The position numbers were made by a program, and so were the translations under genes. A stretch of DNA of 64,000 bases, taken from NCBI GenBank assembly GCA_902776615.1, contig CACYQU010000004.1, positions 1,139-65,138 on the forward strand, given 5' to 3'. The notes under the pieces were generated by a model that searched no databases, was not told the DNA's origin, and worked only from the letters and a program-made list of their open reading frames with translations. Shown piece by piece: positions 7,173 to 45,591 of this stretch. The stretch is from an uncultured bacterium. GTDB taxonomy: Bacteria; Verrucomicrobiota; Kiritimatiellia; RFP12; UBA1067. The stretch's first letter is position 1. Each line of letters begins with the position of its first letter.

Positions 7173-7303
7173 ATAATTCGTCGCATCGCGCAACTAGCCC
7201 AACTGGTCAAGTGATTAGGGTGCGCAATTTGACCGCTTGAAGACGAAAGATGGGCAAAAGAAAAACTCCCAGAACTTGCGTCCTGAGAGTCTTGCGCCAT
7301 TGT

Positions 7304-7396
<93 letters not shown>

Positions 7397-7414
7397 TGAT
7401 CGTCAAAACAGGGT

Positions 7415-7427
7415 GTAGTATATCATA
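7415..7427 (-). promoter_or_regulatory. Extended -10 TGATATACT, about 20 nt upstream of the mature 5' end of tRNA-Ser.
   Basis: The minus strand reads GGATATGATATACTACACCCTG. The same box occurs upstream of tRNA-Val and rpoB. Confidence 0.45.
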
Positions 7428-8580: not shown

Positions 8581-8637
8581 GTCGAATTGCTCCTTGTTGT
8601 TTTGGTTGTTGGTGAATTGCATCAAATATGTACGCGG

Positions 8638-10565: not shown

Positions 10566-10581
10566 TTGTTTCTCCTTGATT

Positions 10582-11400: not shown

Positions 11401-11418
11401 TTTGGCCTTGCCTTCTTG

Positions 11419-13654: not shown

Positions 13655-13666
13655 GTATTATACCTT
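13655..13666 (-). promoter_or_regulatory. -10 box GGTATAATA lying 11 nt upstream of the HTH-EIIA ATG, implying a near-leaderless transcript.
   Basis: The minus strand reads AAGGTATAATacacctcagttATG. Confidence 0.45.
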
Positions 13667-32131: not shown

Positions 32132-33178
32132 TCAGTTCTTGTAGGTGACGACGCCTTTGCCCTTTCGGATGACGCCTATCACATTGTAGCGCTGGTGTTG
32201 CGCCTTGAGTATGTTCGTCGCCTTTTCAACCTGGTTCTTCGGAATGATTATCACAAACCCTATTCCCATGTTGAATACGCGGTACATCTCGTCGCGTTCC
32301 ACCTTGCCCTGGCGCTCGATGAACTTGAAAATCGTCGGAACCTCCCAGCTGGCACGGTCGATTTCGGCATTGACGGCCTTTGGCAGCACGCGCGGCAGAT
32401 TGTCGGGGAATCCTCCGCCTGTGATGTGGGCCATTCCGTTGATCTTCACCTTGCGCTCCATGAGCTTGGCTACCGGCTTGAGGAAGCTCTTGTGCACCGC
32501 GAGGAGAGCCTCGCCGAACGTCTGGTTCGTCCCGGGCAGCTTATCCTTCCACGAATAGCCGCAGAGATCGAATATGACCTTGCGCGCGAGCGAAAAGCCG
32601 TTCGTCTGAAGCCCGCCCGAAGGCAGCCCGATGATCACATCGCCCGCCCTGATGGACTTGCCGGTGATGAGATCCTTTTTCGCGACATGACCGACGATGG
32701 TTCCCACCAGATCATACTCGCCCATAGGGTAGAGCCCGGGCATTTCGGCGGTTTCGCCGCCGAGAAGCGCCATCTTGTTCTCTTTGCAGGCTTTGCAAAG
32801 GCCGCTCACCACGGCCTTGAACTGCTGGGCGTCAAACTTTGCCGCGCCAACATAGTCCATAAAGAACAACGGCTTCGCGCCCTGAACGAGAATGTCGTTC
32901 ACACAGTGGTTGACAATGTCCTGCCCGACGGTGTCGTGCTTGTTCATCATCGCCGCCACCTTGAGCTTTGTGCCAACCCCGTCGGTCGAGGCGACAAGTA
33001 TCTCGTTGCGCCCCGGCGGAACCTTGTGCAGCCCGCCGAAGGAGCCTATTCCGCCGAGCGTGAGCTGGGTTTTCGTACCCGCGACCATCGACTTGATGGC
33101 GGCAAGAGCCGCCATCTTGTTGTCGATGTTCACGCCCGCCTTGGCGTAGGCGGATTTAGCATTGTCTGACATTGGCAT
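32132..33178 (-). CDS. purM: Phosphoribosylformylglycinamidine cyclo-ligase (AIR synthetase).
   Basis: Motifs SYAKAGVNIDN, ASTDGVGTKLKVA and HCVNDILVQGAKPLFFMDY. At 348 aa. Confidence 0.95.
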   Translation of the reverse strand: MPMSDNAKSAYAKAGVNIDNKMAALAAIKSMVAGTKTQLTLGGIGSFGGLHKVPPGRNEILVASTDGVGTKLKVAAMMNKHDTVGQDIVNHCVNDILVQGAKPLFFMDYVGAAKFDAQQFKAVVSGLCKACKENKMALLGGETAEMPGLYPMGEYDLVGTIVGHVAKKDLITGKSIRAGDVIIGLPSGGLQTNGFSLARKVIFDLCGYSWKDKLPGTNQTFGEALLAVHKSFLKPVAKLMERKVKINGMAHITGGGFPDNLPRVLPKAVNAEIDRASWEVPTIFKFIERQGKVERDEMYRVFNMGIGFVIIIPKNQVEKATNILKAQHQRYNVIGVIRKGKGVVTYKN

Positions 33179-34188
33179 CAGAGCTTGTCGTTGGATCCCA
33201 AGACCTTCATGATCTTGTGGATGTACATTTTCTTCATGTTCTCGCGAGCTGGCGTCAGGTACTGGCGCGGATCGAAGTGGTCGGGGTGCTCGGCGAAGTG
33301 CTTGCGGACGGCGGCCGTCATCGCGAGACGCGAGTCGCTGTCGATGTTGATCTTGCAGACCGCGCTCTTAGCGGCCTTGCGGAGCTGCTCTTCGGGAATG
33401 CCGACGGCATCGGGAAGCTTGCCGCCGTACTTGTTGATCGTATCGACTTCCTCCTGCGGAACGCTGGAGGAGCCGTGAAGCACGATCGGAAAGCCCGGAA
33501 GCTTCTTCTCGATCGCCTTGAGCACGTCGAACGCGAGCGGCGGCGGAATCAGTTTGCCGGTCTTGGGGTCGCGTGTGCACTGCTCGGGCTTGAACTTGTA
33601 GGCGCCGTGCGAGGTGCCGATCGAAATTGCGAGAGAATCGCAGCCGGTCTTGGTCGCGAACTCGACAACCTCCTCGGGCTTGGTGTAGTGGCTCTCGGCC
33701 GCAGACACCTCGTCTTCAACACCGGCGAGAACGCCGAGCTCCGCCTCGACAGTCACATAGTCCTTCTGCTTGTGGGCGTAGTTGACGACCTTCTTGGTGA
33801 GCTTGATGTTCTCGGCGAACGGAAGCGAGCTGCCGTCGATCATCACGCTCGAGAAGCCGGAGTCGATGCAGCTCTTGCACGTCTCGAAGCTGTCGCCATG
33901 GTCGAGATGGAGAACGATCTGAGGCTTCTTGCAGCCGAGCTCCTTGGCGTATTCCACGGCGCCCTGCGCCATGTAACGGAGAATCGTAGGATTGGCGTAC
34001 TTGCGCGCACCCTTTGAGACCTGCATGATTACGGGCGACTTCGTCTCGACCGCAGCCTGAACGATGGCCTGCATCTGCTCCATCGTGTTGAAATTGAACG
34101 CGGGAATCGCATAGCCGCCCTTGATGGCCTTTGCGAACATCTGCTTGGTATTGACGAGCCCTAGCTCTTTGTAGCTGGTCTTTTTCAT
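33178..34188 (-). CDS. fba: Class II fructose-1,6-bisphosphate aldolase. The start is at MKKTSYK..., preceded by GAAGG; the alternative in-frame ATG is at 34215.
   Basis: Motifs GGYAIPAFNFNTMEQ, LHLDHGDSFE, SVMIDGS and IGTSHGAYKF are all class II FBA signatures. Confidence 0.93.
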   Translation of the reverse strand: MKKTSYKELGLVNTKQMFAKAIKGGYAIPAFNFNTMEQMQAIVQAAVETKSPVIMQVSKGARKYANPTILRYMAQGAVEYAKELGCKKPQIVLHLDHGDSFETCKSCIDSGFSSVMIDGSSLPFAENIKLTKKVVNYAHKQKDYVTVEAELGVLAGVEDEVSAAESHYTKPEEVVEFATKTGCDSLAISIGTSHGAYKFKPEQCTRDPKTGKLIPPPLAFDVLKAIEKKLPGFPIVLHGSSSVPQEEVDTINKYGGKLPDAVGIPEEQLRKAAKSAVCKINIDSDSRLAMTAAVRKHFAEHPDHFDPRQYLTPARENMKKMYIHKIMKVLGSNDKL

Positions 34189-34261
34189 TTTGCCTTCGCT
34201 TTTATCCTGCGCCATATACTGTTTGGCCAGGACCCGCCGAGGCGCAGCCGGAGGCGAAGAC

Positions 34262-34631: not shown

Positions 34632-34752
34632 CCCCTTAAGGGTGGCTTTTGTTTACCCTAAGGGTGAGAGCACTTCCCCCTTAGGGTTTCTTTAACTCCC
34701 CCTTAGGGTGAGGTCGCCTCACCCTTAGGGGTTCCGACACTTACCCTTAGGG
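34632..34752. repeat. Array of six CCCTTAGGG-type 9-bp quasi-palindromic boxes (one is CCCTAAGGG, one is CCCTTAAGGG), spaced 22 bp centre to centre and separated by 13-bp unique spacers.
   Basis: Read directly from the sequence, with box centres at about 34637, 34660, 34682, 34704, 34726 and 34748. Confidence 0.7.
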
Positions 34753-34839
34753 GGAAATCACACATGCCGCCATACGAATCTGCCATGGGGTCCATGGCCG
34801 ACTCGCCAGTCGCAACCGCCCTACTGGGAGAGCGCATAA

Positions 34840-34865
34840 CTGGGAGAGCGCAACCGCTCTCCCAG
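34840..34865 (-). terminator. Perfect 11-bp-stem hairpin (CTGGGAGAGCG-caac-CGCTCTCCCAG) about 50 nt downstream of the activase stop, a possible terminator with no U-tract.
   Basis: Read directly from the sequence. A third copy of CTGGGAGAGCGC lies 16 nt before it (34824-34835), which allows an alternative pairing. Confidence 0.3.
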
Positions 34866-34916
34866 TTGGGGGCTCTCACGGGTGTGTGCTGCCGTTGGGG
34901 CTGAGTCCATAGATGA

Positions 34917-35609
34917 CTAAGGCAGGGGCGGGGCAGTGAGGCTGAATGTTCTGCCGAGCATTGAATATTTCGCAGGGGCGGCCGTGTTGTAGGGCAAAAA
35001 CTCTATCGGAGCGCCAGCGGCGAAGGCGTTGAATGCGGTGCGGTCTTGCGGAGAATCGTTCACGCCAGGTATGCACGGCACACGGAAGACGAAAGGCACG
35101 CCCGCGCCGCGGAGCCATGCGATATTCTCCATGACTTGCGCAAGGCTCCCGCCCGTCCAGCGAGAGAACGCCGCAGGATCGAGCAGCTTCAAATCCTGAT
35201 AGACGAAGTCCATGAGCGAGACGACGCGCCTGTAGTCGGCGGCGCTCGCCGCGCCGCTCGTTTCGAGCGCAACCGAAACGCCCTTCTCCTTGAGGCGCAC
35301 TGCAAGCGCAGAGACAAAATCGGCCTGCGCGAGCGGTTCGCCGCCGGAAAATGTCACGCCGCCGCCGGACTGCGCCATTATGTCGGCGTTGACGAGCAGC
35401 TCCTCGGCGAGCGCGTCCACGCTCCAGTCGCGTCCGCAGACGACCCTTTCGCCGCTCTGCAGGACCATCGTCTCGATCTCGTGCGACTGGCCTTCGGGGT
35501 TGTGGCACCATGCGCAACGCAGCGGACAGCCCTTGAAGAACACTGTAGTCCGCACGCCCGGTCCGTCGTGCAGGGTGAATTCCCGAACTTCGAACGTTCG
35601 GCCCGTCAA
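34917..35609 (-). CDS. Glycyl-radical-enzyme activating protein (PFL-AE-family radical SAM enzyme). A TTG start at 35609 is assumed, overlapping the GRE stop as TTGA; the longest ORF would run to 35888.
   Basis: Radical-SAM cluster motif GPGVRTTVFFKGCPLRCAWCHNPEG, followed by the PFL-AE-like core. Confidence 0.85.
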   Translation of the reverse strand: MTGRTFEVREFTLHDGPGVRTTVFFKGCPLRCAWCHNPEGQSHEIETMVLQSGERVVCGRDWSVDALAEELLVNADIMAQSGGGVTFSGGEPLAQADFVSALAVRLKEKGVSVALETSGAASAADYRRVVSLMDFVYQDLKLLDPAAFSRWTGGSLAQVMENIAWLRGAGVPFVFRVPCIPGVNDSPQDRTAFNAFAAGAPIEFLPYNTAAPAKYSMLGRTFSLTAPPLP

Positions 35610-37681
35610 GATGCCGCCAGCTCCACACGCTTGATTATCTGGTCTTGGTACGGCTTGTCCAGCTCGATGAAATAGCCGCTCCATCCCCATACCCGAACGA
35701 TCAGATGGCGATGGCGTTCGGGGTGTTTCTGCGCGTCGAGCAGAGTGTCGCGATTGATCGTGTTGATCTGCATTTGGTGTCCGCCGCGGTCGATAAAGAA
35801 CTTTACGAGATGCGCCACCTTCTCTACGCCGTCGGGCATGGCGAACGCGGAATCGTGTATTTCGATCGTAAGAGGGCCGCCGTTGCACACCGGACCGAGA
35901 TTCGGCTCGGTGAAAGACCGGACGACCGAGATCGGGCCTTTCACGGGCACATCAAGCGACGGCGCGTAGTTCGCCGAGAACGGTTCGCCAGAGAGACGCC
36001 CGTCGGCGGATGCAGGCACATCCCGCGTGTGCCATATGTAATACATCGCACTACCCGTTCCGGGACGGAATATCCCGCCGCGATCGTTGCGGCGTCCGTC
36101 GAAGGCGTGGCCCCAGAAATCAATGAGCCACTTGGCGATTTCGTCCGCGCGCGGATCGGCGTTGCCCATCTTCGGCGCAGCCTTGGCGGCGGCACGGATG
36201 TCGTCCCGTCCGGCGAAGTCGGTGTCGAGAAGTTTGACAAGCTCTGCGAGAGTAAGAAGGCGCTTCTCGAACACCAACTCGCGTACTGATGCCAGCGAAT
36301 CGACGGCGACAGCGATTCCGGTTCCGTGGATTCCGAAGTTGTTGTATTTCGCGCCCTTCGAGATGTCGCGGGCCTTTTCTATGCAACCGGTGGAGATCAC
36401 CGATACGAATGGTCCCGGCAGAATCTCTACGTGGGAATATTTCCCGACAAGCGCGTCCGCGCGGCGCTGGACTTCGGCCTTGAACTCAGCCTTCACATCC
36501 TCGAAAGAGACGCCTTCCGCCGGAGCGAGGCGCCTCAGCGACGCGTCCAGCGCGCCGACGAAACTGACGGCGTCGATGTTGTTTATGTCCATTCCGCAAC
36601 CAGGCACGAGGAATTCCCAGCACGCGGCCACGGAATAGTCGCGCGCGTCCTCCGTCGCGTAGCCCCAGCGTTCTAGCGCGGGAATGACTACATCGTCGTT
36701 CGCATACTGCGGAAAGCCCAGCCCCTTCGCCGTAAGTTCGGTGCCAAGTTCGTATATTTCGATTGGCGTGGACTTGTCGACGCGAAGGTTGATCTTGGGA
36801 TCGACAAGCTTCAGTTCTCCGCACGCCTTGAGGCACAGGCGCGAGAGGTCGTTGAAAGCGGGCGCGCCGTCACGCGTAACGCCGCCAAGCATGACCGACT
36901 GTCCGTTGTCGCCCTGCTGAACGCCGATGTAAAGGTCGCTGTCGCGGTTGCAGGCGATGAAAAACTCTTCGAGCTCTTCAAGCGCGCCGTCCGCGGTGAG
37001 CCGTCCGGCGTCGAGGTCGGCCTTGTAATAGGGATAAAGGTACTGGTCGATGCGTCCGAGACCGCAGTGATACTCCCCTTCGCACCACATCGCATAGTGG
37101 AGAATCCTCAGCGACTGCAGCGCTTCGTGGAAGGTCCGCGCGCCTTTGAGCGGCACGTGCGCGAGCGTCGCGGCAATCTCGCAAAACCCGCGCGCCTCGG
37201 CCGCCTTGCGATAGCGCTCCGCAAGATCGAGCACGGCGCGAACCGAGAGCGCCGCGTTTTCTAGAAACTCCACGCCCTCGGCGTCGCCTTCGGCGCGACA
37301 CTTCCCAAGGCGCGCCGATATTTCGTCGAGCCGCGCGCCGAGTCCGTCGCGAATCGTCGGGCCGAAATCGGCCGTCAGGTTGAAGACGACCCCCTTCTCG
37401 CCAAACGCGGTTCCGGACGCGCGTCGCGCGTCCATCTCGGCATCGGTATGGAGATCGGGAATCTGGCGGACGGTCCGGAGGAACGCCAGGCGTTCGCCGT
37501 CCATGAACTCAGGGCGCTCCTCACGCAGCATTTCCTCAAGTCCAACACGCGCACGCACGACATCGCCTGTACCTTCGGCGACGAAACGCGCCAACAGCGG
37601 TTTCCAGTCCACATCGCGGCGGAACTTCGCCTGTTCGCGATCGAATGTTCTGTCAAGGAGGGACTTAATCCTCTCGGTCAT
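35606..37681 (-). CDS. Glycyl-radical enzyme of the PFL superfamily, compact at about 692 aa and of unknown substrate specificity.
   Basis: The C-terminal Gly-radical motif region is IVRVWGWSGYFIELDK, about 25 aa from the C-terminus. The mid-protein Cys-loop region is RDYSVAACWEFLVPGCGM. The PFL-like N-terminal helical and barrel regions are present, and the cognate activase is coupled immediately downstream. Confidence 0.88.
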   Translation of the reverse strand: MTERIKSLLDRTFDREQAKFRRDVDWKPLLARFVAEGTGDVVRARVGLEEMLREERPEFMDGERLAFLRTVRQIPDLHTDAEMDARRASGTAFGEKGVVFNLTADFGPTIRDGLGARLDEISARLGKCRAEGDAEGVEFLENAALSVRAVLDLAERYRKAAEARGFCEIAATLAHVPLKGARTFHEALQSLRILHYAMWCEGEYHCGLGRIDQYLYPYYKADLDAGRLTADGALEELEEFFIACNRDSDLYIGVQQGDNGQSVMLGGVTRDGAPAFNDLSRLCLKACGELKLVDPKINLRVDKSTPIEIYELGTELTAKGLGFPQYANDDVVIPALERWGYATEDARDYSVAACWEFLVPGCGMDINNIDAVSFVGALDASLRRLAPAEGVSFEDVKAEFKAEVQRRADALVGKYSHVEILPGPFVSVISTGCIEKARDISKGAKYNNFGIHGTGIAVAVDSLASVRELVFEKRLLTLAELVKLLDTDFAGRDDIRAAAKAAPKMGNADPRADEIAKWLIDFWGHAFDGRRNDRGGIFRPGTGSAMYYIWHTRDVPASADGRLSGEPFSANYAPSLDVPVKGPISVVRSFTEPNLGPVCNGGPLTIEIHDSAFAMPDGVEKVAHLVKFFIDRGGHQMQINTINRDTLLDAQKHPERHRHLIVRVWGWSGYFIELDKPYQDQIIKRVELAAS

Positions 37682-37717
37682 CTCGCACCAACCTTTCTCT
37701 AATCGCAACCGCCAACC

Positions 37718-37787
37718 ACTAACAACTAACAACTAACCACTAACGACTAACAACTAACCGCTAACCACTAACAACTAACCACTAATC
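37718..37787. repeat. Heptanucleotide microsatellite: ten tandem CTAACNN/ACTAACN units (GTTAGNN on the coding strand). It spans the MFS stop codon and the MFS-GRE intergenic region.
   Basis: Read directly from the sequence: actaaca actaaca actaacc actaacg actaaca actaacc gctaacc actaaca actaacc actaatc. Confidence 0.75.
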
Positions 37788-39145
37788 CCCAGTCTCGCCT
37801 CGATATCCTCAATCGTACCGCCCTTGGTCTCAGGCATGAAGAATACGGCCCAAACAAGCTGAACGGCCATCATGAACGCGAAGAACGCGAACGCCCACGT
37901 ACCTGCGCTCTCGGCCACGACAGGGAATGCCCATGAAATCACCGTGCACATGAACCAGTGGGTGAAGCAACCGAGGGCCTGTCCCTTCGCCCTTACGACA
38001 TTCGGGAATACTTCGGAGATGTAAACCCATATCACCGCACCGGACGATACCGCGAAGAACGCTATGAAGCCGAGAATGCCTGCCATGGCGATCGCGGCGT
38101 TCGGATGCGGCAGCGAGAGCTGCCACGCAACGAGCGCATGCATGACGATCATGAGAGAGGCGCCGCAGATGATGAGAGCGCGGCGTCCGAACCGGTCGAT
38201 GAAGAAGAACGCGAGAATCGTGAACGTGAGGTTCACCACGCCGACGCCTATCGTGCCCGCGAGCGCGGCGAGTTCGCTTCCCTCGCCGAAGATGAGCTGG
38301 AAGATGCGCGGCGCATAGTAGTTGATGGCGTTTATGCCCGACACCTGATTGAAGAACGCTATCAAAAACGCCAGCATGATCGGCTTGGCGTAGCGCCGCT
38401 GGAAGAGCGCGACCTTCACGCCATTGGCTGCGGCGCGCAGGGATTCCGCAATCTCGGCAAGGGTCTTCTCGATTTCGGGATAGCCGATGCGCTCAAGAAC
38501 GCCGCGCGCGGCGTTCGCGCGATTCGCCCTCACAAGCCAGCGCGGAGATTCGGGAATCGTCGCGAGAAGCGCCATGAAAAGCGCAATCGGCACGCACTCC
38601 ATGCCAAGCATCACGCGCCACACAAGCTTGGGGTCGGCATTCGGCATGAACCGCGCCACGAGATAGTTTGAGATGTACGAGACCAGAATGCCGAACACGA
38701 TGTTGAGCTGATTCATCGCCACGAGCCGACCCCTGTATCTGCCGGGCGATACCTCGACAATGTAGAGCGGCACGACAACCGAAACGCCGCCTATAGCGAG
38801 CCCGCCGATGAAGCGGAACCATCCAAGCAAATGCGGCCCGAAAACCGGGCTGTGCGGAGTGAACGCGCAGCCCACTGCGGAGACGAGGAAGAGAACCGCC
38901 ATCAGCCACAGCGTCGGTTTGCGTCCCCACTTGTCGGACGGCGCGCCGGCGGTGAAAACGCCGATCACGGTTCCGATAAGCGCACCGGAGACGATAAGTC
39001 CGTGCCAAAACGCCGAAAGCGAAAACTCCGACTGGATGGCTTTTTCGCATCCGGAGATGACCCCCGAATCGAAACCGAAGAGGAATCCGCCCAAAGCGGC
39101 TACAACAACTATGTAAAAAAGAGACTTGTTCATTCGCTTAACCAA
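37775..39145 (-). CDS. MFS sugar porter (sugar:H+ symporter family), 12 transmembrane segments.
   Basis: Motifs GFLFGFDSGVISG, DKWGRKPT (the GRK motif) and IPESPRWL (the PESPR motif). At 456 aa. Confidence 0.9.
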   Translation of the reverse strand: MVKRMNKSLFYIVVVAALGGFLFGFDSGVISGCEKAIQSEFSLSAFWHGLIVSGALIGTVIGVFTAGAPSDKWGRKPTLWLMAVLFLVSAVGCAFTPHSPVFGPHLLGWFRFIGGLAIGGVSVVVPLYIVEVSPGRYRGRLVAMNQLNIVFGILVSYISNYLVARFMPNADPKLVWRVMLGMECVPIALFMALLATIPESPRWLVRANRANAARGVLERIGYPEIEKTLAEIAESLRAAANGVKVALFQRRYAKPIMLAFLIAFFNQVSGINAINYYAPRIFQLIFGEGSELAALAGTIGVGVVNLTFTILAFFFIDRFGRRALIICGASLMIVMHALVAWQLSLPHPNAAIAMAGILGFIAFFAVSSGAVIWVYISEVFPNVVRAKGQALGCFTHWFMCTVISWAFPVVAESAGTWAFAFFAFMMAVQLVWAVFFMPETKGGTIEDIEARLGISG

Positions 39146-39191
39146 ACATCATAGCATTTTCCGGGCGGATATTGCGTATCTCCGTATTTGA

Positions 39192-42100
39192 TTACCTGAC
39201 GATGATCATCATGCCAGGAGGCTCCGGCGCCCACTCAAGCTTGATGGTCTTGCCGACGAAATTTGTCTCGCTGTAGTCGAATTCCCTTCCGCTTTGGAAC
39301 GAACCCATCTTCTCCCAGTTGCCGTTCTCAAGCTCATAATAAAGGCGATAGCCAGCAACATCTTTGAGGTTTCCTTTGACGTCCTTGACCTTCGTCGCGG
39401 TGAACATCCAGCTTCCCTCGACCTTGTACGCGCCAGTCGCCTCGGCAAGCTCCTCCGCATCGCCCGCAACATCGGCGTACTTCGTCGTCACCAGTACGTT
39501 CGTCACGCCCAGCTCGCCGAAGTAGCGCGCGCTATCGACATTGCGGTTGCGGACGAGTTCCTCCTGCGTGAGAATGCGGTCGTAGAAGCGGAAGTCCTTC
39601 ACGGTGCCGACAAGGTAGCTGTCGGCTCCGCCGCCCCAGCCGCCGAGGGCCAGCTTGCCGACGTGGGCATCGGCCATCGACGACCGCTCCAGATATCCGT
39701 CCGCGATGGTTCCTCCGGTCGGCGGCTCGGTCCCCGTGAACACGGTCGCAGTGCGCTCGGCGTCGTCCAGCATCGTCGTCACGTAGGTGAAGCGCTCGGC
39801 ATCCGCGTTGGCGACATGTGGCATGTCATTGTGCGAATTAAGCCCCTGCGTGTGGAACCAGACTGTCTTGGGATTGGAGGTGCCGCAGATAACCAGCGCC
39901 ATTTTGCTCCAAGCGGAGGAATAGACGTAGTTCTCGCCATTGCCCGCCTTGTTATCGTCATAGAGGGCGTCCAGAACGGTCTGCTCCGTATAGGTCCGGT
40001 TCCAGACGTTCGATACCGCCGTCATGAACTTGCTCTTGCCGCCGAAGGCATAGCCGTCCGACGCCCAGGCGCTGTCGTCGTCACCCTTGGTGAGGCTCAT
40101 GTTGTAGTAGTCTCCGCCCGAACCGACGTTGACCCACTTCGAGGCGGTCGTGCTGTGCGCCACGCCGACGCCGGCGTTGAGAAGGCCGTCGTAGTGGAGG
40201 CGGAGCCCGGCGGGCGAGTAGTCGTCGAAGCCGTAGTCCGAGGCGGTGCGAAGGCCGCGCACGGGACGCCAGCGCCATGTGAGGCGGACGGCGCCTGCGG
40301 AGGTGGAGTAGGCGTAGGAGCAGGAATCGTAGGAGACGGGATTCGTCCACTCCGCACCGCTCCGCTGCTCAAGGATGTAGCCGTCGCAGACGTAGGTGAT
40401 GCCATTCGTGGCCGTCACGCTCTCCGGCGCGACGAAGGTGTAGGAGCCGACGACCTCGTAGCCGCCGCACTTGTCGTAGCCTTCGATGTAGGAGTAGGTC
40501 GATTGGACAATGACGTTCGGTTCGGCGTAGCGCCCGAAGTACCGGTATTCGTCGACCTTGCGGTTCTTAGCGACCTCGGCGTCGGTGAGCGCGCGGTTGT
40601 AGAGGCGAAAATCGTGGAGCGTCCCGTTAAAGCTCTGGAGGTTGGCGGCGTCCCCGGAGCGTCCGTGGAAGCCTCCGACGCTGAACCAGGTCACGTTGGT
40701 CGCCGGGGAGTCACCATCGATGGCCGGGGCGTCGGTGCCGCCGGCTGCCGGCCGCGCGGTGCCGCCGAAGATGTAGGTGGTCTTGGTGTCGTCATAATCG
40801 GCGATCACGGTCACGTAGGACGGCCTTGCGCCCGCCGGGTAGAAGTTGGGGCGCGCGTCCGGGTGGACGGTCGAGTTCACATAGTAAACGCTGTTGGCGT
40901 TGCCGTTCGCGGCGCTGTTGTTCGACTTGCGCATCGCAACGCTGCCATAGCTCCATCCGTGCTGGCCCGTCCAAAGGTAGGCGGGGTCGCCAAGCTGGTC
41001 GGCAATGGCACCCGTCACCGAAATCTGCACCGTGAAATTGGCGGGGACAGCAAACGGATCGCCATCGTTCCACTTGGCGAAATAGGACTTGCCGTTGAAG
41101 GCGAAGCCGTTCTCCGCCCACTCGCCCTGCGCGGCGCTGTTGCGGGCCCATGCGTAATTGCCGGCGGTATTTTCGAGATAGGAGCACCGGTCCATCGGCC
41201 AGCGGGCCGCGTAGCCGGGCGCGATGTTCTTCCACTGCATGGCGGCGGAGTCGTGCGCCGCGTCCGCGCCGACGTTGCGGATGCCGTCGTAGTGCAGGAG
41301 AAGACCGTCGGTCACATAGTCGTCCAGACCGTAGATCGCAAGCGAGCCTTCGCCAGGGACGGTGGAGTATTGCCAGGTGATGCGGACCTTCCCGGAAGAC
41401 GTCGCGGTGCAGGACGATTCGCCGTCGTGCGAAACGGGTTCTCCCCAATCGGAGTCGTTCCAGGTTTCCAGCGTGTAGCCGGAAAGGACGTGGCGCTTGC
41501 CGTTCACGGTGCGCTGCGCAGGGGCGGTAAACGTGAAACCCTCTGCGTCAAGCGCGTAGGCGCCGCACGGCTGATCGCCCTCGGCGCCGGGCGCGCTCGT
41601 GGCGACGACCACGTTCGTCATGGGAATCGGCGCGGAGGCGCGGAAAAAGCGCCATTCGTCGATCACGCGGTTCCACGCGAGGTCTTCCCCAGAGAGCGCC
41701 TTGGAGTAGTAGCGGATGGCGTGGAGTGTGCCGTTGAATGACTGGAGGGAGTTGCTGGCTTTTCTCGTGCGCGGCGGGTTGTCGTATTGAGAGCCGATCG
41801 CGAACCAGGGGTTGACGTCCTCCGCCGTCCTCGAACCGGCCTTGTAGGAGTTGCCGCCGGTCGAAGCCGTCGGAATCTCCGTTCCCTCGAAGACCCGGAT
41901 GGCTACCGTATCGGAGAGGATGGTCGCGTAGCGGGGATTGGCGTTCGAAAAGTTGGGGCGCGGCGTGTTGGCGCCGAAGCGGGTCCTGTCGATGGCGTAG
42001 ACGGCGTTCGCGGGCGTGGTGGAGCCGTTTGAGCCGTTTTCGGACTGGCGGATGGCGACGGCCCCGTATTCCCAGCCCTTCCCGGGCCGGAAGATGTAGC

Positions 42101-42578
42101 CCGTCGTGCCGTTCTCGTCCTTGAGGTCGGCGGTCGAAGCCGTCATCGCGAACTGGAGCGTGTAGGCGGGCCCCATGCTGAATGAGACCTTCGTCGCGGC
42201 AAAGCCCTCAAGCCCGTCAAAGGCGAAGCCGTTCGCGGTCCACGCGCCGTTCGCGGTGTTGCCGTCTTCGCGGGCGTACGAGTCGGCGGTCCCCTGCTTG
42301 ACCCAGCTGTACCATACGAGCGGACACTCGCCGTCCGAGGCCAGGTTCGCCCAGGTGACGGCCGCGTCGGAATGCGCGGCGTCCGCGCCGACGTTGCGGA
42401 TGCCGTCGTAGTGGAGGACAAGTCCGTCCTGGACGTAGTCGCCGACATCGTATGCCTTGAAGTCGGGGTTGTCCCAATACTTCACTCCCGCATATGCTGC
42501 GGAGGCGAATGAACAGGCCAGCGCAGCGACCGAAAGACGCGCGCCGGAGGCGAGAAGCTTTCCAGATATGCTTTTCAT
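39192..42578 (-). CDS. Large secreted protein (~1128 aa) built from three ~330-aa repeats, each containing a LamG/ConA-like lectin domain and a beta-sandwich domain. The start is at MKSISGKL..., which carries the signal peptide.
   Basis: Signal peptide MKSISGKLLASGARLSVAALACSFASAAYA. The repeats start YDVGDYVQDGLVLHYDGIRNVGADAAH, YGLDDYVTDGLLLHYDGIRNVGADAAH and YGFDDYSPAGLRLHYDGLLNAGVGVAH. The LamG_3 C-terminal strands are FNGTLHAIRYYSKALSGEDLAWN, FNGTLHDFRLYNRALTDAEVAKN and GTVKDFRFYDRILTQEELVRN. Its own -10 box and an AAGGAAGGA ribosome-binding site are present. Confidence 0.85.
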   Translation of the reverse strand: MKSISGKLLASGARLSVAALACSFASAAYAGVKYWDNPDFKAYDVGDYVQDGLVLHYDGIRNVGADAAHSDAAVTWANLASDGECPLVWYSWVKQGTADSYAREDGNTANGAWTANGFAFDGLEGFAATKVSFSMGPAYTLQFAMTASTADLKDENGTTGYIFRPGKGWEYGAVAIRQSENGSNGSTTPANAVYAIDRTRFGANTPRPNFSNANPRYATILSDTVAIRVFEGTEIPTASTGGNSYKAGSRTAEDVNPWFAIGSQYDNPPRTRKASNSLQSFNGTLHAIRYYSKALSGEDLAWNRVIDEWRFFRASAPIPMTNVVVATSAPGAEGDQPCGAYALDAEGFTFTAPAQRTVNGKRHVLSGYTLETWNDSDWGEPVSHDGESSCTATSSGKVRITWQYSTVPGEGSLAIYGLDDYVTDGLLLHYDGIRNVGADAAHDSAAMQWKNIAPGYAARWPMDRCSYLENTAGNYAWARNSAAQGEWAENGFAFNGKSYFAKWNDGDPFAVPANFTVQISVTGAIADQLGDPAYLWTGQHGWSYGSVAMRKSNNSAANGNANSVYYVNSTVHPDARPNFYPAGARPSYVTVIADYDDTKTTYIFGGTARPAAGGTDAPAIDGDSPATNVTWFSVGGFHGRSGDAANLQSFNGTLHDFRLYNRALTDAEVAKNRKVDEYRYFGRYAEPNVIVQSTYSYIEGYDKCGGYEVVGSYTFVAPESVTATNGITYVCDGYILEQRSGAEWTNPVSYDSCSYAYSTSAGAVRLTWRWRPVRGLRTASDYGFDDYSPAGLRLHYDGLLNAGVGVAHSTTASKWVNVGSGGDYYNMSLTKGDDDSAWASDGYAFGGKSKFMTAVSNVWNRTYTEQTVLDALYDDNKAGNGENYVYSSAWSKMALVICGTSNPKTVWFHTQGLNSHNDMPHVANADAERFTYVTTMLDDAERTATVFTGTEPPTGGTIADGYLERSSMADAHVGKLALGGWGGGADSYLVGTVKDFRFYDRILTQEELVRNRNVDSARYFGELGVTNVLVTTKYADVAGDAEELAEATGAYKVEGSWMFTATKVKDVKGNLKDVAGYRLYYELENGNWEKMGSFQSGREFDYSETNFVGKTIKLEWAPEPPGMMIIVR

Positions 42579-43479: not shown

Positions 43480-45579
43480 TCAGCAATCGACGCATGGAGC
43501 CGCAGCGGCGGCAGGCGCCACGACCGCACGGTCGTCGTCGAATCCAAGCCGCCACGTGTTGTCGCGGATGTCGTTGAGGCATGGTTTGAGCCCCGCGCCA
43601 TCGATTGGCGAGAGTTTTATCAAGTGCGTCGCATGGCCGGGAACCGAAACTTCGTAGCGTCCTTCCGCCACGCCTTCGTCGGCCTGGCGCCAGAGATCGC
43701 GAACCTTCCATTCCCCTTTCATGCCCAAACGGGAGAAGTCCACGGTTATTTTGCGCTCCTCGATATCGGCGTTGAGAAGCGCAAACGCCATAGTGCCATC
43801 AGCCAGCGGACGCGCCCACACTTCGGTAGACGCAGGTTTGTCCTCCAGAACGAGCGCAGCCGCCGCGCCGAGTCCATCCTGATCAATGGCGAGAACTTCA
43901 TCGTTCGTCAGGAGCGAAAGCGTGAATTCGTCCATAAGCGACAAGTCGCATCCTATCATGAGCGGCGAGGCGAACATGCACCACATGGAGATGTGGGTGT
44001 AGCATTCGTTCTGTGTGAGGCGTCCCTTGGACCACACCGTGCGCCCGACGACAAGCATGTCGGCGTCGTTCCATGCGCCGGGTCCGGAATACATCCAGTG
44101 CGGCGCCTGCGAGCGAATGCCTGTTCCATATACGCTCGGCCAAGTGTCGAACACATCGCCTGTAGTGCGCCAGCACTGTCCGCCGGACTGTTCGCCCCAA
44201 GTCGGGACGTTCTCGTTGCCGTACTGGCAAAGCGAAAACACGATATCGCGCGGCTGCATCTTGAGGAAGCGGCCCATCAGGAAGTACGGGCGCGTATGAT
44301 ATTCGCGTCCTGAACCTGTTGCGACCGCGCCGTAGCTGCACCAGTCGTACTTGAGATAATCGTAGCCCCATTCGGCGTAGCTTTTCGCGTCCTGGAGTTC
44401 ATGCAGCCAACTACCCGTGCAGCCTCCGCAAGTATACGGGCCGGGCGAAGAATAAAGGCCAGCCTTGAAGCCCTTGGAATGTATGTAGTCGGCCAGAGCC
44501 TTCATATCGGGGAAGCGGGCGTTCGGCGCTATAGTACCGTCGGGATTGCGCTCCGGCCCCGCAAGCGTCGGGTCGCTCTTTCCGTTTTCGGGGTTCTTCT
44601 GCCAGAAGTCGTCGATGTTCACATACGCCCAGCCGTGCTCGTCGAGGCCGAGCTCGACCATCTTGTCGACAGCCGTCTTCATCTTGTCGGCGCTAACGCT
44701 TCCTGCGAAAGCGTTCCAACTGTTCCAACCCATAGGCGGCGTAAGGGCGATCTTGTCGCCGATAACGAACGCTACCGTCTTCTCGTCCCTTCCGGCGGAG
44801 TTCGAGGCAGTGAATCTTATGCGATATTCGCCCGGCTTTTCGATTGCGCCGGAGAGAATTCGCGTGGCGGGGTCGAAGTTGAGCGCGGAGGCGCCGCTTC
44901 CTATCGCAAGCGCGTCACACGCCGCAGTCGCGGCGATCGGCTTTGCGCCGGAAACGGGCAGTTTGAAAAGTATCGGACGCCCCGGCCTCGCGCCGTAACG
45001 GACTGGCGCATTGATCTTGGGCACGGCAGACGGTTTCGGCGTCAGTATGCCAAGCTGGCGCGTAAGCGAACCCGACGGAAGCGGCCCGGCGCCGTCCCTG
45101 AAAACAAAGAAAGCGTCCGCCCAGTCGGCGTGGTCGAAGTAATTGCCGTCGCCTCCCTCGGTCACTTCAAGCGTCGCGATTTTCGCGCCAGAGAGGTCGG
45201 CCTTCAGCGGAACGCTTCTGCCGCGCTCGCTCTTCGCCTCGGCTACGAGACGTCCGTCGGCGTATATGCGAAACGCCACCGCCCCTTTGCCGTCCGTTTC
45301 GTCGTCAACGCCGACCTTCGCCTCAAACGAAAGCGCGGCGCCTCCAAGCGCCACCTTGTACACGCTTGGCGCATGAGTGCCGACGCCTCGCGCGAATTCC
45401 TCACCGCCGACCCGCAGAGCATTGCCGCCGATCGATTTGCGGGCGGCAGGCTTTCCCCAGCCACAGGACATGAGGTCGATTTCGGTCTCGTCAAGCCAGT
45501 GCTTCTCGGCACCGGCCGCACAAGCAGCCGACAGCACGGTGACTGCGAGTGCAATATGCGCGTATTTCATAAGGGGCAC
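43480..45579 (-). CDS. Secreted GH27-family alpha-galactosidase / alpha-N-acetylgalactosaminidase with an N-terminal NPCBM-like module and an Ig-like domain.
   Basis: Signal peptide MPLMKYAHIALAVTVLSAACAAGA. The NPCBM-like block is ...FDHADWADAFFV. The GH27 catalytic motifs are PPMGWNSWNAF and YLKYDWCSY. Confidence 0.85.
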   Translation of the reverse strand: MPLMKYAHIALAVTVLSAACAAGAEKHWLDETEIDLMSCGWGKPAARKSIGGNALRVGGEEFARGVGTHAPSVYKVALGGAALSFEAKVGVDDETDGKGAVAFRIYADGRLVAEAKSERGRSVPLKADLSGAKIATLEVTEGGDGNYFDHADWADAFFVFRDGAGPLPSGSLTRQLGILTPKPSAVPKINAPVRYGARPGRPILFKLPVSGAKPIAATAACDALAIGSGASALNFDPATRILSGAIEKPGEYRIRFTASNSAGRDEKTVAFVIGDKIALTPPMGWNSWNAFAGSVSADKMKTAVDKMVELGLDEHGWAYVNIDDFWQKNPENGKSDPTLAGPERNPDGTIAPNARFPDMKALADYIHSKGFKAGLYSSPGPYTCGGCTGSWLHELQDAKSYAEWGYDYLKYDWCSYGAVATGSGREYHTRPYFLMGRFLKMQPRDIVFSLCQYGNENVPTWGEQSGGQCWRTTGDVFDTWPSVYGTGIRSQAPHWMYSGPGAWNDADMLVVGRTVWSKGRLTQNECYTHISMWCMFASPLMIGCDLSLMDEFTLSLLTNDEVLAIDQDGLGAAAALVLEDKPASTEVWARPLADGTMAFALLNADIEERKITVDFSRLGMKGEWKVRDLWRQADEGVAEGRYEVSVPGHATHLIKLSPIDGAGLKPCLNDIRDNTWRLGFDDDRAVVAPAAAAAPCVDC

Positions 45580-45591
45580 GATCCTTTCGTG

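What the first reader, a model, noticed from the sequence alone, without database searches (positions are those of the whole stretch)
34917..42578. Compact (~692 aa) PFL-like glycyl-radical enzyme with coupled activase, co-oriented behind an MFS sugar porter and a secreted triple-LamG protein
The four genes are co-directional with short gaps (46 nt, 93 nt, and a TTGA overlap). The GRE is about 60-150 aa shorter than characterised GREs (PFL, glycerol/propanediol dehydratase, CutC, HypD and HPAD are 760-900 aa). Its mid-protein active-site loop reads AACWEFLVPG, a Cys-x-Glu arrangement like the eliminase/dehydratase class rather than the Cys-Cys of PFL. Its Gly motif reads RVWGWSGYF. The pairing with a sugar:H+ symporter suggests a sugar-derived or polyol substrate imported by the porter. 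The upstream 1128-aa LamG-triplicated lectin-like secreted protein may capture a glycan. Elsewhere in the window are a FucA-like aldolase and a FucO-like lactaldehyde reductase (9420-11400), so a diol or deoxy-sugar route ending in a radical dehydration is conceivable. That is inference only, and substrate specificity cannot be read from sequence here.
Basis: partly seen in the sequence, partly recalled or inferred. Interest (0 to 1): 0.65.

Follow-up and report, generated by a model that had tools for sequence, protein, structure and literature searches.

The report
Compact sugar-linked glycyl radical enzyme module
A gut or rumen Kiritimatiellae bacterium carries a sugar importer, an unusually small oxygen-sensitive radical enzyme and a minimal activating enzyme as one conserved module; the radical enzyme belongs to a widespread, uncharacterised clade that probably performs radical chemistry on an imported sugar.

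Summary
The four genes are present as described, on the minus strand. They encode a secreted protein with three LamG-like modules, an MFS sugar porter, a 691-aa glycyl radical enzyme (GRE) and a 230-aa activase (AE).

The GRE is not truncated. It belongs to a monophyletic clade with a median length of 688 aa, found in at least 593 species-level genomes from Kiritimatiellae, Lentisphaerae, Planctomycetes, Firmicutes, Bacteroidales and Spirochaetes. The clade signature is C-W-E on the Cys loop, RVWGW on the Gly loop, and Asn where glycerol dehydratase, PflD and YbiW have the catalytic His. It scores below every curated NCBIfam cut-off and shares only 22-26% identity with every solved GRE.

The link between sugar porter, GRE and AE is conserved. 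The genes sit adjacent, overlap in some genomes, and diverge in parallel. In other phyla the same GRE lies beside ABC sugar transporters, arabinofuranosidases, alpha-galactosidase-like hydrolases, and isomerase, kinase and aldolase genes.

The LamG gene and the distant FucA/FucO genes are not linked to it.

The most likely function is a CXE-type radical 1,2-elimination or ring-opening on an imported neutral sugar. L-arabinose or D-galactose type is my best guess for the substrate. The substrate has not been tested. I found no paper describing this clade.

The parts
37775..39133 (-). MFS sugar-porter family transporter. 452 aa from the ATG at 39133; the ORF also allows a TTG at 39145.
   Evidence: Pfam Sugar_tr E 4.8e-104. 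NCBIfam TIGR00879 322 bits, above its 237.8 cut-off. XylE equivalog 325.6 bits, below its 608 cut-off. It is 37% identical to E. coli XylE and keeps the XylE sugar-site residues, with Q288N and Q415H in all GRE-linked porters examined. It lies directly upstream of the GRE in 22 PVC (Planctomycetes-Verrucomicrobia-Chlamydiae group) loci and adjacent to AE-GRE in 7 Bacteroidales loci.
37714..37785 (-). 7-nt tandem repeat, 10.3 copies, read as UAG-N4 on the mRNA strand. It fills most of the MFS-GRE spacer and starts in the MFS stop region.
   Evidence: TRF period 7, 86% matches. No significant fold. The same array occurs in L006 (8 copies) and in degenerate form in L051, but not in other relatives. 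It may be only a slippage product; its function is untested.
35606..37681 (-). Compact glycyl radical enzyme, 691 aa. Cys loop C354-W355-E356; Gly loop R663-V-W-G666-W-S-G-Y-F.
   Evidence: Pfam PFL-like and Gly_radical. Below all NCBIfam cut-offs. AF2 model pLDDT 90.9. Foldseek hits to GRE eliminases and isomerases with query-normalised TM 0.87-0.90 and 22-26% identity. Clade signature and monophyly.
34917..35609 (-). Minimal GRE-activating radical SAM enzyme, 230 aa. Its TTG start overlaps the GRE stop. It has no ferredoxin-like insert.
   Evidence: TIGR02494 205.5 bits, above its 174.35 cut-off, but matched in two stretches that skip profile positions of about 45-96. Only five Cys: 28, 32, 35, 58 and 179. 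Alignment with clade AEs shows the 8-Cys insert present in Lentisphaerae, Planctomycetes, Firmicutes and Bacteroidales and absent here.
34838..34867 (-). Perfect 13-bp-stem hairpin about 50 nt after the AE stop. This is the probable 3' end of the transcript.
   Evidence: Read directly. MFE -40 kcal/mol for the 96-nt stretch, z -4.33, and 0 of 200 shuffles fold as well. There is no U-tract, so the terminator scan did not call it.
39192..42578 (-). Secreted protein with three LamG-like modules, 1128 aa, co-oriented upstream. It is positionally adjacent but not a conserved part of the module.
   Evidence: Three modules with 39%, 28% and 28% pairwise identity. One weak Laminin_G_3 hit. No homologue in 86 related loci.

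Best explanation
The conserved unit is a three-gene module: sugar porter, compact GRE and activase. It is very probably one transcript that ends at the hairpin after the activase.

The proposed sequence of events is as follows.
1. The porter imports a neutral, pyranose-type monosaccharide or a close derivative.
2. The 230-aa radical SAM activase installs a radical on Gly666 of the GRE.
3. The radical passes to Cys354.
4. The thiyl radical abstracts a hydrogen from a carbinol carbon of the sugar, or of a product made from it in one step.
5. Glu356 of the CXE motif deprotonates that hydroxyl.
6. The resulting ketyl radical expels a vicinal C-O substituent. This is either loss of water or an alkoxide (1,2-elimination), or ring opening as in YbiW/PflD. 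The product is a deoxy-keto sugar or an isomer.
7. Cys354 returns the hydrogen.
8. In other phyla the product would feed an isomerase, FGGY kinase and class II aldolase route encoded next to the same GRE.

Shown here: the gene order and its conservation; membership of the GRE fold; the Gly, Cys and Glu catalytic residues; the clade signature; and the sugar-related context.

Inferred: co-transcription, the reaction class, and that the imported sugar is the substrate. The substrate identity is a guess from neighbouring genes. L-arabinose or D-galactose type is the leading guess and D-xylose type is possible.
For: Fold and catalytic residues:
- Pfam PFL-like and Gly_radical domains.
- AF2 pLDDT 90.9, pTM 0.91.
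- Foldseek query-normalised TM 0.87-0.90 to GD, CutC, PD, PflD and HypD.
- C354-x-E356 and G666 align with Cys433/Glu435 and the radical Gly of glycerol dehydratase, and with PflD and YbiW.
- The CXE Glu hydrogen-bonds the substrate hydroxyl in every characterised eliminase and isomerase (review PMC13450708).

Module conservation:
- An adjacent AE in 69 of 86 loci.
- A sugar-porter MFS of one orthogroup next to the GRE in 29 of 86 loci.
- ABC sugar transporters in 19 further loci.
- MFS/GRE start-stop overlap (ATGA) in L008, L036 and L038, and gaps of 3-28 nt in several others.
- Parallel divergence: MFS identity 83/70/64/41-48% against GRE identity about 85/59/54/48-50%.
- The porter keeps the XylE-type sugar-binding residues (residue roles are from my recollection of the XylE structure paper).

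Sugar context:
- GH51 in 10 loci, clan GH-D melibiase-like in 10, GH36 in 3, GalM in 4, AraD in 3 (above the NCBIfam cut-off), FGGY kinase in 3.
- GH127 found for 2 of the 116 nearest-neighbour proteins.
- A tight Bacteroidales operon: MFS, isomerase, FBA_II-like aldolase, FGGY kinase, MFS, AE, GRE (L048).

Larger pocket than GD:
- Tyr339 to Gly260 and Tyr640 to Gly543, conserved clade-wide.
Against: - No biochemical data exist, and the substrate cannot be read from sequence.
- In some Lentisphaerae and Planctomycetes loci the GRE sits among housekeeping genes such as PEPCK, malic enzyme, FtsJ and Sua5, without a transporter. Sugar linkage is therefore not universal.
- The His that protonates the leaving group in GD, and that is conserved in PflD and YbiW, is Asn101 here. 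The acid catalyst, and hence the exact chemistry, may differ from known eliminases.
- Loci carrying a separate isomerase, kinase and aldolase could mean the GRE acts on a downstream small product rather than on the sugar itself.
- Gene calls in related loci came from a crude longest-ORF method. It produced antisense artefacts in high-GC contigs, which were partly corrected.
- Co-transcription is inferred from spacing only.
Confidence: 0.6

Rival explanations
1. The GRE is a small-diol or glycerol dehydratase, like B12-independent glycerol or 1,2-propanediol dehydratase. It would act on a C2-C3 product of sugar breakdown (ethylene glycol, 1,2-propanediol or glycerol), not on the imported sugar.
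For: The best sequence match among solved structures is C. butyricum glycerol dehydratase (262 bits). The CXE motif is present. Some loci encode isomerase, kinase and aldolase sets that would release a small aldehyde. An Fe-ADH and a FucA-like gene exist elsewhere in the window.
Against: TIGR01774 scores 309 bits against a 678 cut-off. The glycerol-site residues are replaced clade-wide: H164 to N, S282 to C, Y339 to G, Y640 to G. No aldehyde dehydrogenase, 1,3-propanediol dehydrogenase or microcompartment genes lie beside the GRE in any of 86 loci. The tight, sometimes overlapping, coupling is to a sugar porter and not to a glycerol or diol facilitator. All eliminases are about equally distant in structure.
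Confidence: 0.13
2. The GRE is a YbiW/PflD-like isomerase acting on a phosphorylated sugar. The porter imports the sugar, a kinase encoded elsewhere phosphorylates it, and the GRE then opens or rearranges the sugar phosphate.
For: YbiW and PflD are the only known sugar GREs. They use CXE and act on 1,5-anhydrohexitol 6-phosphates. An FGGY kinase lies next to the GRE in several loci. Structural similarity to PflD (query-normalised TM 0.89) is as good as to any other GRE.
Against: The PflD-type equivalog NF007437 scores 269 bits against 1109. Identity to E. coli PflD is 28% and to YbiW 25%. There is no PTS, whereas the E. coli genes sit in PTS operons. PVC modules carry no kinase. The His shared by PflD and YbiW is Asn here.
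Confidence: 0.17
3. It is what the databases call it: a pyruvate (2-ketoacid) formate-lyase of central fermentation.
For: Public annotations read 'pyruvate formate-lyase' or 'formate C-acetyltransferase'. Some PVC loci place it near PEPCK and malic enzyme. It is highly conserved within Kiritimatiellae (83-98% identity).
Against: PFL needs two adjacent Cys; here the loop is A-C-W-E. TIGR01255 scores 51 bits against a 994 cut-off. E. coli PFL is the weakest full-length GRE hit in the PDB (55 bits).
Confidence: 0.03
4. The gene is a decaying or N-terminally truncated copy of a normal-length GRE, or its start is mis-called.
For: It is about 70-200 aa shorter than characterised GREs.
Against: The start is conserved (MTERI...), and homologues of 641-709 aa align end to end in six phyla. 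The missing residues are internal deletions spread along the sequence. AF2 folds it confidently. Catalytic residues are invariant in the clade.
Confidence: 0.01

Closest known systems
B12-independent glycerol dehydratase (C. butyricum DhaB1, PDB 1R8W/1R9D) and 1,2-propanediol dehydratase (PDB 5I2A)
   Same: They share the 10-stranded barrel fold, the Cys-x-Glu loop, the C-terminal glycyl radical domain and an adjacent radical SAM activase. GD is the best sequence hit (262 bits), with 32% identity over 585 aligned columns.
   Different: This GRE is about 95-150 aa shorter through internal deletions. His164 is Asn, Ser282 is Cys, Tyr339 is Gly and Tyr640 is Gly. The Gly loop reads RVWGW, not RVAGY. 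It falls below the TIGR01774 cut-off. It is linked to a sugar porter, not to diol or glycerol genes.
GRE sugar isomerases YbiW and PflD (1,5-anhydroglucitol-/mannitol-6-phosphate to 1-deoxyfructose-6-phosphate; PDB 8ID7, 8ID0, 8YJO)
   Same: These are the only characterised GREs acting on carbohydrates. They have the CXE motif and are embedded in sugar-uptake operons. Structural similarity is comparable (query-normalised TM 0.87-0.89).
   Different: Identity is 25-28%. Their operons use a PTS and therefore a phosphorylated substrate; here the transporter is an MFS or ABC system delivering free sugar. The conserved His is replaced by Asn. Their AEs (PflC, YbiY, about 292-299 aa) are longer than the 230-aa AE found here.
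Choline TMA-lyase CutC, hydroxyproline dehydratase HypD, isethionate/DHPS lyases
   Same: Same fold and CXE chemistry. Foldseek E-values range from about 1e-43 (CutC) through 1e-41 (HypD) to 1e-36/1e-37 (isethionate and DHPS lyases).
   Different: Equivalog HMM scores are 251-284 bits against cut-offs of 1000-1100. The specific substrate-anchoring residues are not shared. There is no microcompartment or sulfonate/amine context.
PFL-activating enzyme (PflA) and the ferredoxin-domain GRE activases (TIGR02494)
   Same: Radical SAM CxxxCxxC core. The size (230 aa) resembles PflA (246 aa). The sequence scores as a TIGR02494-family activase (205.5 bits against 174.35).
   Different: According to the 2026 review, only PFL-AE and RNR-AE lack the ferredoxin-like domain. 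This activase of a CXE-type GRE also lacks it, while orthologous AEs of the same GRE clade in other phyla retain an 8-Cys insert. It falls below the PflA equivalog cut-off (137.5 bits against 231.75).
E. coli XylE / sugar-porter MFS family
   Same: Meets TIGR00879 and is 37% identical to XylE. The sugar-site residues F24, Q168, Q289, N294, Y298, N325, G388, W392 and W416 are conserved.
   Different: It falls below the XylE equivalog cut-off. Q288N and Q415H are fixed in all GRE-linked porters examined. Specificity is unknown.

Membership tests
Glycyl radical enzyme superfamily (PFL-like) | C-terminal glycyl radical domain with an RVxG motif | tested here: met
   Pfam Gly_radical E 4.4e-16. R663-V-W-G666 aligns with RVAG of GD, PflD and YbiW.
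Glycyl radical enzyme superfamily (PFL-like) | Mid-protein Cys loop carrying the thiyl-radical Cys | tested here: met
   C354 aligns with GD Cys433 and with the catalytic Cys of PflD and YbiW. It is present in all 25 intact clade representatives.
Glycyl radical enzyme superfamily (PFL-like) | 10-stranded alpha/beta barrel fold | tested here: met
   AF2 model pLDDT 90.9. Foldseek query-normalised TM 0.87-0.90 to GD, CutC, PD, PflD and HypD.
Glycyl radical enzyme superfamily (PFL-like) | Cognate radical SAM activase encoded nearby | tested here: met
   The AE overlaps the GRE stop codon. TIGR02494 scores above its cut-off. An AE is adjacent in 69 of 86 loci.
Glycyl radical enzyme superfamily (PFL-like) | Formation of a stable glycyl radical | not testable with these tools
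   Needs anaerobic reconstitution and EPR.
GRE 1,2-eliminases / isomerases (CXE class) | Glu two residues after the catalytic Cys | tested here: met
   C354-W-E356. CWE is conserved across the clade. The defining role of the motif is taken from review PMC13450708.
GRE 1,2-eliminases / isomerases (CXE class) | His on strand beta1 (GD His164), proposed proton donor to the leaving hydroxyl and conserved in GD, PflD and YbiW | tested here: not met
   Asn101 here. Asn occupies this position in all 25 intact clade representatives, while most other GRE representatives have His.
Pyruvate formate-lyase | Adjacent Cys-Cys pair on the Cys loop, and the TIGR01255 equivalog score | tested here: not met
   The loop reads AACWE. 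TIGR01255 scores 51.1 bits against a 994.2 cut-off.
PFL2 / glycerol dehydratase subfamily (TIGR01774), glycerol or propanediol dehydratase | Subfamily HMM cut-off | tested here: not met
   309.3 bits against a 678.2 cut-off.
PFL2 / glycerol dehydratase subfamily (TIGR01774), glycerol or propanediol dehydratase | Glycerol-site residues His164, Ser282, Tyr339, Tyr640 and Asp447 (roles recalled from the GD structure papers) | tested here: not met
   They are N101, C206, G260 and G543 respectively. The Asp447 region lies in a shortened loop and its alignment is ambiguous.
YbiW/PflD anhydrohexitol-6-phosphate isomerases | Equivalog HMM score and PTS-linked operon | tested here: not met
   NF007437 scores 268.8 bits against 1109. 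The E. coli genes sit with PTS components, whereas here the partner is an MFS. Identity is 25-28%.
CutC, HypD, HpsG/HpfG, IAD, HPAD | NCBIfam equivalog cut-offs | tested here: not met
   The window GRE scores 186-284 bits against cut-offs of 1000-1150.
Ferredoxin-domain GRE activases | Auxiliary 8-Cys ferredoxin-like insert after the radical SAM cluster motif | tested here: not met
   The insert is absent. The protein has five Cys in total. Orthologues in other phyla of the same clade have the insert.
Sugar porter family of MFS (TIGR00879) | Family HMM cut-off and conserved sugar-site residues | tested here: met
   322.2 bits against 237.8.
D-xylose:H+ symporter XylE (equivalog) | Equivalog cut-off | tested here: not met
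   325.6 bits against 608. Q288N and Q415H substitutions are present.

The most novel reading that the evidence does not exclude
This clade catalyses a GRE reaction not yet described: radical C-O cleavage (dehydration, de-alkoxylation or ring opening) directly on an unphosphorylated monosaccharide delivered by its dedicated porter. If so, it defines a previously unknown anaerobic route for plant- or host-derived pentoses or hexoses (arabinose/galactose type) in gut and rumen bacteria of at least six phyla. It would use a new acid/base set (Asn101, Asp258-Asn259, Lys296 in place of the GD His and Tyr residues). In Kiritimatiellae it would also use the first ferredoxin-less activase reported for a CXE-type GRE.
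Probability: 0.35. Interest if true: 0.8.

Novelty: new variant of a known kind. Interest (0 to 1): 0.62.

Why it matters
GREs carry out some of the most consequential anaerobic reactions in gut microbiomes, including trimethylamine, p-cresol, H2S precursor and hydroxyproline metabolism. The field's 2026 review states that whole clades still lack any tested function.

This module marks one such clade, and it is tractable for four reasons.
- It is widespread, with at least 593 species-level genomes including rumen, horse, Hadza and industrialised human gut bacteria.
- It has cultured hosts: Hungatella hathewayi DSM 13479, Parabacteroides goldsteinii and P. timonensis, Acetatifactor aquisgranensis and Enterocloster hominis.
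- It has a clear sequence signature.
- Its genomic context narrows the substrate search to a handful of neutral sugars.

If the enzyme acts on a free sugar, it would extend radical carbohydrate metabolism beyond the two anhydro-sugar-phosphate isomerases known so far.

The small activase, which has only the radical SAM domain, may also be easier to handle in vitro than typical three-cluster activases. The review names activase handling as the main experimental bottleneck.

All public copies are annotated as pyruvate formate-lyase, which is almost certainly wrong.

Tried and rejected
- Truncation or a wrong start: rejected by end-to-end alignment with 641-709-aa homologues from six phyla and by a confident AF2 fold.
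- A functional LamG link: rejected, because there is no homologue in any related locus.
- The downstream class II FBP aldolase (34215..33178) as part of the pathway: rejected. It passes the housekeeping FBA equivalog cut-off (618 bits against 511). It is also separated from the AE by a hairpin, a repeat array and tRNA-Val. It had clustered with true GRE-neighbour aldolases only through general homology.
- A FucA/FucO connection: these genes are 24 kb away with unrelated genes in between.
- A riboswitch or known RNA in the spacers: Rfam found only the two tRNAs.
- HutP-like or TRAP-like binding to the UAG-N4 repeat: this is only a recollected resemblance. The array is restricted to three close relatives and looks like slippage from the MFS 3' end, so I did not pursue it.
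- A sulfoquinovose link through the SftI-like isomerase: the score is 148 bits against a 700 cut-off, and the sulfoquinovose review mentions no sugar-acting GRE. Dropped.
- Seven literature searches that touched this clade or sugar-acting GREs of this kind found nothing on this clade.
- My first gene-neighbourhood pass used greedy longest ORFs. It produced antisense artefacts in high-GC contigs, so I redid it with all ORFs matched to reference clusters.

Full report
**What is in the window**

Positions 34917-42578 carry four co-oriented minus-strand genes.

- The first gene (42578..39192) encodes a 1128-aa protein with a signal-peptide-like N-terminus. It has three modules of about 370 aa, each opening with YvxDGLxLHYDG. 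Pairwise identities are 39%, 28% and 28%. Only one module reaches Pfam Laminin_G_3.
- The second gene is a sugar-porter MFS transporter (Sugar_tr E 4.8e-104; TIGR00879 above its cut-off). Homologues of 451-452 aa indicate the ATG at 39133 as its start.
- The third gene is the glycyl radical enzyme (GRE). Reading the DNA shows its ATG at 37681, so the protein is 691 aa and the spacer to the MFS stop is 93 nt. Residue numbers below count from that Met.
- The fourth gene is a 230-aa radical SAM activase (AE). Its TTG start overlaps the GRE TGA.

No terminator-like site lies in either spacer, and the MFS-GRE spacer has no significant fold (z -0.71). A perfect 13-bp-stem hairpin follows the activase (z -4.33). 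After it come a repeat array, tRNA-Val and the housekeeping class II FBP aldolase. Upstream, RNase PH is transcribed divergently. The rest of the window is ordinary chromosome, including rpoC, RNase R, DAHP synthase, isocitrate dehydrogenase and GDP-mannose dehydratase, with flat GC content.

**Organism**

The closest GRE homologues (83-98% identity) come from gut and rumen metagenomes and from MAGs labelled Kiritimatiellae.

**The GRE is compact by design**

- The 150 best representatives of 50%-identity clusters include many full-length proteins of 641-709 aa that align from residue 1 to the end.
- A 17-sequence alignment has conserved N-termini (M-x-E/D-R-I) and 35 invariant columns.
- Aligned with E. 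coli PflD, E. coli YbiW and C. butyricum glycerol dehydratase (GD), the missing residues are internal deletions. These are a block of about 55 residues after the first N-terminal helices, about 11 residues before the 'VP' helix, 5 residues in the loop that carries GD Tyr339, and about 17 residues after the Cys loop.
- AlphaFold2 folds the protein confidently (pLDDT 90.9, pTM 0.91).
- Foldseek matches all solved eliminases and isomerases about equally, with query-normalised TM 0.87-0.90 and 22-26% identity. No solved GRE is a close relative.

**Clade signature**

I tabulated 21 positions across 115 full-length representatives plus GD, PflD and YbiW. The window protein shares one signature with 25 clusters:

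- Asn101, where GD, PflD and YbiW have His;
- His205;
- Asp258-Asn259-Gly260-Gln261, where GD has Pro-Met-Tyr339-Gln;
- Lys296;
- Cys354-Trp-Glu356;
- Gly543, where GD has Tyr640;
- Asn600-Gly-Gly;
- Trp665-Gly666-Trp667, where GD has Ala-Gly-Tyr.

In a neighbour-joining tree these 25 clusters form one clade together with four degenerate or truncated relatives. The clade's median length is 688 aa, against 761 aa for the other representatives. A further set of 18 clusters ending in W-G-F (one ends W-G-M) shares the Asn, DxGQ, Lys and CWE features.

The protein falls below every NCBIfam cut-off. That includes the broad PFL2/glycerol-dehydratase subfamily (309 bits against 678) and all equivalogs. 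Public records call these proteins 'pyruvate formate-lyase (family protein)'. That name is not tenable, because the Cys-Cys pair is absent and TIGR01255 scores 51 bits against 994.

**Distribution**

The best 80 span:

- Kiritimatiellae and 'Verrucomicrobia' MAGs;
- Lentisphaerae and Victivallales;
- Thermoguttaceae and other Planctomycetes;
- Lachnospiraceae (Hungatella hathewayi DSM 13479, Enterocloster hominis, Acetatifactor aquisgranensis, Blautia, Eisenbergiella);
- Oscillospiraceae and Christensenellales;
- Bacteroidales (Parabacteroides, Prolixibacteraceae, Paludibacter);
- Treponema and Brevinematales.

Sources include human (Hadza and Nepali among them), ruminant and horse guts, and digesters.

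**Is the porter link real?**

Yes. In five independent Kiritimatiellae contexts the only genes shared around the GRE are the MFS upstream and the AE downstream.

Across 86 loci, matching all ORFs to reference clusters gave these counts:

| Feature within 6 kb of the GRE | Loci (of 86) |
|---|---|
| Adjacent AE | 69 |
| MFS of the same orthogroup | 29 (always same strand) |
| CUT1 or CUT2 ABC sugar transporter, no MFS | 19 |

Many of the remaining loci are short contigs.

- MFS and GRE overlap by ATGA in L008, L036 and L038, and are 3-28 nt apart in several others.
- The two proteins diverge in parallel. MFS identity to the window copy is 83, 70, 64 and 41-48% in Kiritimatiellae, Lentisphaerae, Planctomycetes and Bacteroidales. 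GRE identity is about 85, 59, 54 and 48-50%.
- The porter is 37% identical to XylE and keeps its sugar-site residues. Two substitutions, Q288N and Q415H, are fixed in every GRE-linked porter examined. The residue roles are from my recollection of the XylE structure work.

This argues for one shared pyranose-like substrate.

**What else travels with the GRE**

- Cluster representatives and a bulk Pfam scan of 116 nearest co-directional neighbours gave sugar transporters, LacI or periplasmic-binding regulators, GH51 alpha-L-arabinofuranosidase (10 loci) and GH127 beta-L-arabinofuranosidase.
- A 750-1060-aa hydrolase occurs in 10 loci, often directly upstream of the MFS in Kiritimatiellae. It is distantly related to GH36 alpha-galactosidase and GH27 beta-L-arabinopyranosidase.
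- Bona fide GH36, aldose 1-epimerase and L-ribulose-5-phosphate 4-epimerase AraD (above its cut-off) also occur, along with an FGGY kinase closest to xylulokinase.
- Two further neighbours are an isomerase distantly related to sulfoquinovose isomerase SftI and a divergent class II ketose-bisphosphate-type aldolase.
- One Bacteroidales locus (L048) strings MFS, isomerase, aldolase, kinase, MFS, AE and GRE together with gaps of 15-25 nt, and AE and GRE overlap.
- No aldehyde dehydrogenase, diol-related gene or microcompartment shell gene appeared.
- In a minority of PVC loci the GRE sits among housekeeping genes.
- The LamG protein has no homologue in any related locus.

**Mechanistic reading**

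The Gly666, Cys354 and Glu356 triad places the enzyme with the CXE eliminases and isomerases. In all of these the Glu hydrogen-bonds and deprotonates a substrate hydroxyl after hydrogen abstraction by the thiyl radical, which promotes heterolysis of a vicinal C-O, C-N or C-S bond.

Replacing both GD tyrosines with glycine, and inserting a conserved Asp-Asn pair, suggests a larger and more polar pocket. Replacing the GD/PflD/YbiW histidine with Asn means the leaving-group acid must be a different residue.

Taken with the transporter coupling, the epimerase association (which hints at anomer specificity) and the arabinose/galactose-releasing hydrolases, I commit to the following. The enzyme performs radical 1,2-elimination or ring-opening on the imported neutral sugar or its immediate derivative, giving a deoxy-keto or isomeric sugar that enters an isomerase, kinase and aldolase type route.

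My confidence is about 0.6 for that class of function. It is much lower for any specific substrate. The rivals are a small-diol dehydratase acting downstream (0.13), a sugar-phosphate isomerase like YbiW/PflD (0.17), PFL (0.03) and a pseudogene (0.01).

**The activase**

It scores as a TIGR02494-type activase but in two pieces. Alignment shows that Lentisphaerae, Planctomycetes, Firmicutes and most Bacteroidales orthologues carry a compact 8-Cys insert (CxxCxxCxxxC...CxxCxxxCP). The Kiritimatiellae clade lacks it, as do one Brevinematales and one Parabacteroides orthologue, and the Kiritimatiellae proteins also have a shortened C-terminus.

The window protein has only Cys28, 32, 35, 58 and 179. 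The 2026 review states that only PFL-AE and RNR-AE consist of the radical SAM domain alone. A CXE-type GRE served by such a minimal activase is therefore unusual. It also shows that the auxiliary domain is dispensable within one orthologous family.

**Literature**

Eight full-text searches and the June 2026 GRE review (PMC13450708) gave no description of this clade. The review lists YbiW and PflD as the only sugar-acting GREs and stresses that entire clades remain unassigned. The library is incomplete, so an unindexed report cannot be excluded.

**Verdict**

It is wrong, or unsupported, about LamG and about the fucose/propanediol idea. This is an uncharacterised but widespread variant of a known enzyme kind, with a testable sugar-directed hypothesis.

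Noticed in passing
window 37714-37785 (minus-strand mRNA); also L006 about 9931-10000 and L051 about 7947-8000: The MFS-GRE spacer is almost entirely a 7-nt tandem repeat with 10.3 copies, read as UAG-N4 on the mRNA. It is G/U-rich, has almost no C, and places stop codons in all frames. It starts in the last codons of the MFS gene. An 8-copy array sits at the same place in a relative whose GRE is 86% identical, and a degenerate one in another relative. More distant relatives have none. It could be simple slippage or a binding array for an oligomeric RNA-binding protein.
   Followed up: partly
window 34656-34752 (with a variant near 34634): Five exact palindromic 9-mers (CCCTWAGGG) are spaced exactly 22 bp apart, between the activase hairpin and the tRNA-Val promoter-like site. 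The motif occurs nowhere else in the 64 kb, where 0.13 matches are expected by chance. It looks like an iteron-like or regulator-binding array. Its function is unknown.
   Followed up: partly
window 34917-35609; loci L001, L002, L004, L007, L039, L076 versus L023, L025, L032, L034, L036, L044, L046, L050, L062, L079: Within one orthologous activase family the 8-Cys ferredoxin-like insert has apparently been lost on at least three separate lineages: Kiritimatiellae, a Brevinematales MAG and a Parabacteroides.
   Followed up: yes
proteins P0166, P0155, P0168, P0176, P0181, P0186: Several full-length relatives within or near the compact clade have lost the catalytic Cys, the Glu and/or the radical Gly. 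For example, P0166 reads SSRGE and RLWSSG. These are apparent pseudo-enzymes or repurposed GRE folds.
   Followed up: no
representatives such as P0153, P0158, P0161, P0175, P0195, P0224, P0230: A further set of GREs (18 representative clusters, 673-815 aa) shares the Asn, DxGQ, Lys and CWE signature but ends its Gly loop in W-G-F rather than W-G-W. In the neighbour-joining tree they fall with the WGW clade in a larger, mixed group. They also appear uncharacterised. Their gene context was not examined.
   Followed up: no
locus L048 489-10079: A Bacteroidales MAG has a seven-gene, tightly packed operon: MFS, SftI-like isomerase, divergent class II aldolase, FGGY kinase, MFS, AE, GRE. A sulfatase gene follows. 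It is the most complete candidate pathway around this GRE and a good starting point for substrate prediction.
   Followed up: partly
window 43480-45579 (minus): A 699-aa NPCBM + GH27 (Melibiase_2) alpha-galactosidase or beta-L-arabinopyranosidase-type hydrolase lies about 900 bp upstream of the LamG gene, beyond the divergent RNase PH gene. It is in the same enzyme clan as the hydrolase that directly precedes the MFS-GRE module in related genomes.
   Followed up: no
window 13665-16274 (minus): An 869-aa ORF combines retropepsin-like aspartyl protease domains (Asp_protease_2, gag-asp_proteas, RVP) with a GxDLY/SGNH-type esterase. This is an odd domain combination. The long N-terminal Arg-rich stretch suggests the true start lies further downstream.
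   Followed up: no
window 7237-9366 (+), 10999-12249 (+), 44401-46716 (+), 39294-41741 (+): Long ORFs with no family hits lie antisense to real genes or over tRNA-Ser (7304-7396). They are typical spurious ORFs of a 59% GC genome and should not be annotated as genes.
   Followed up: partly
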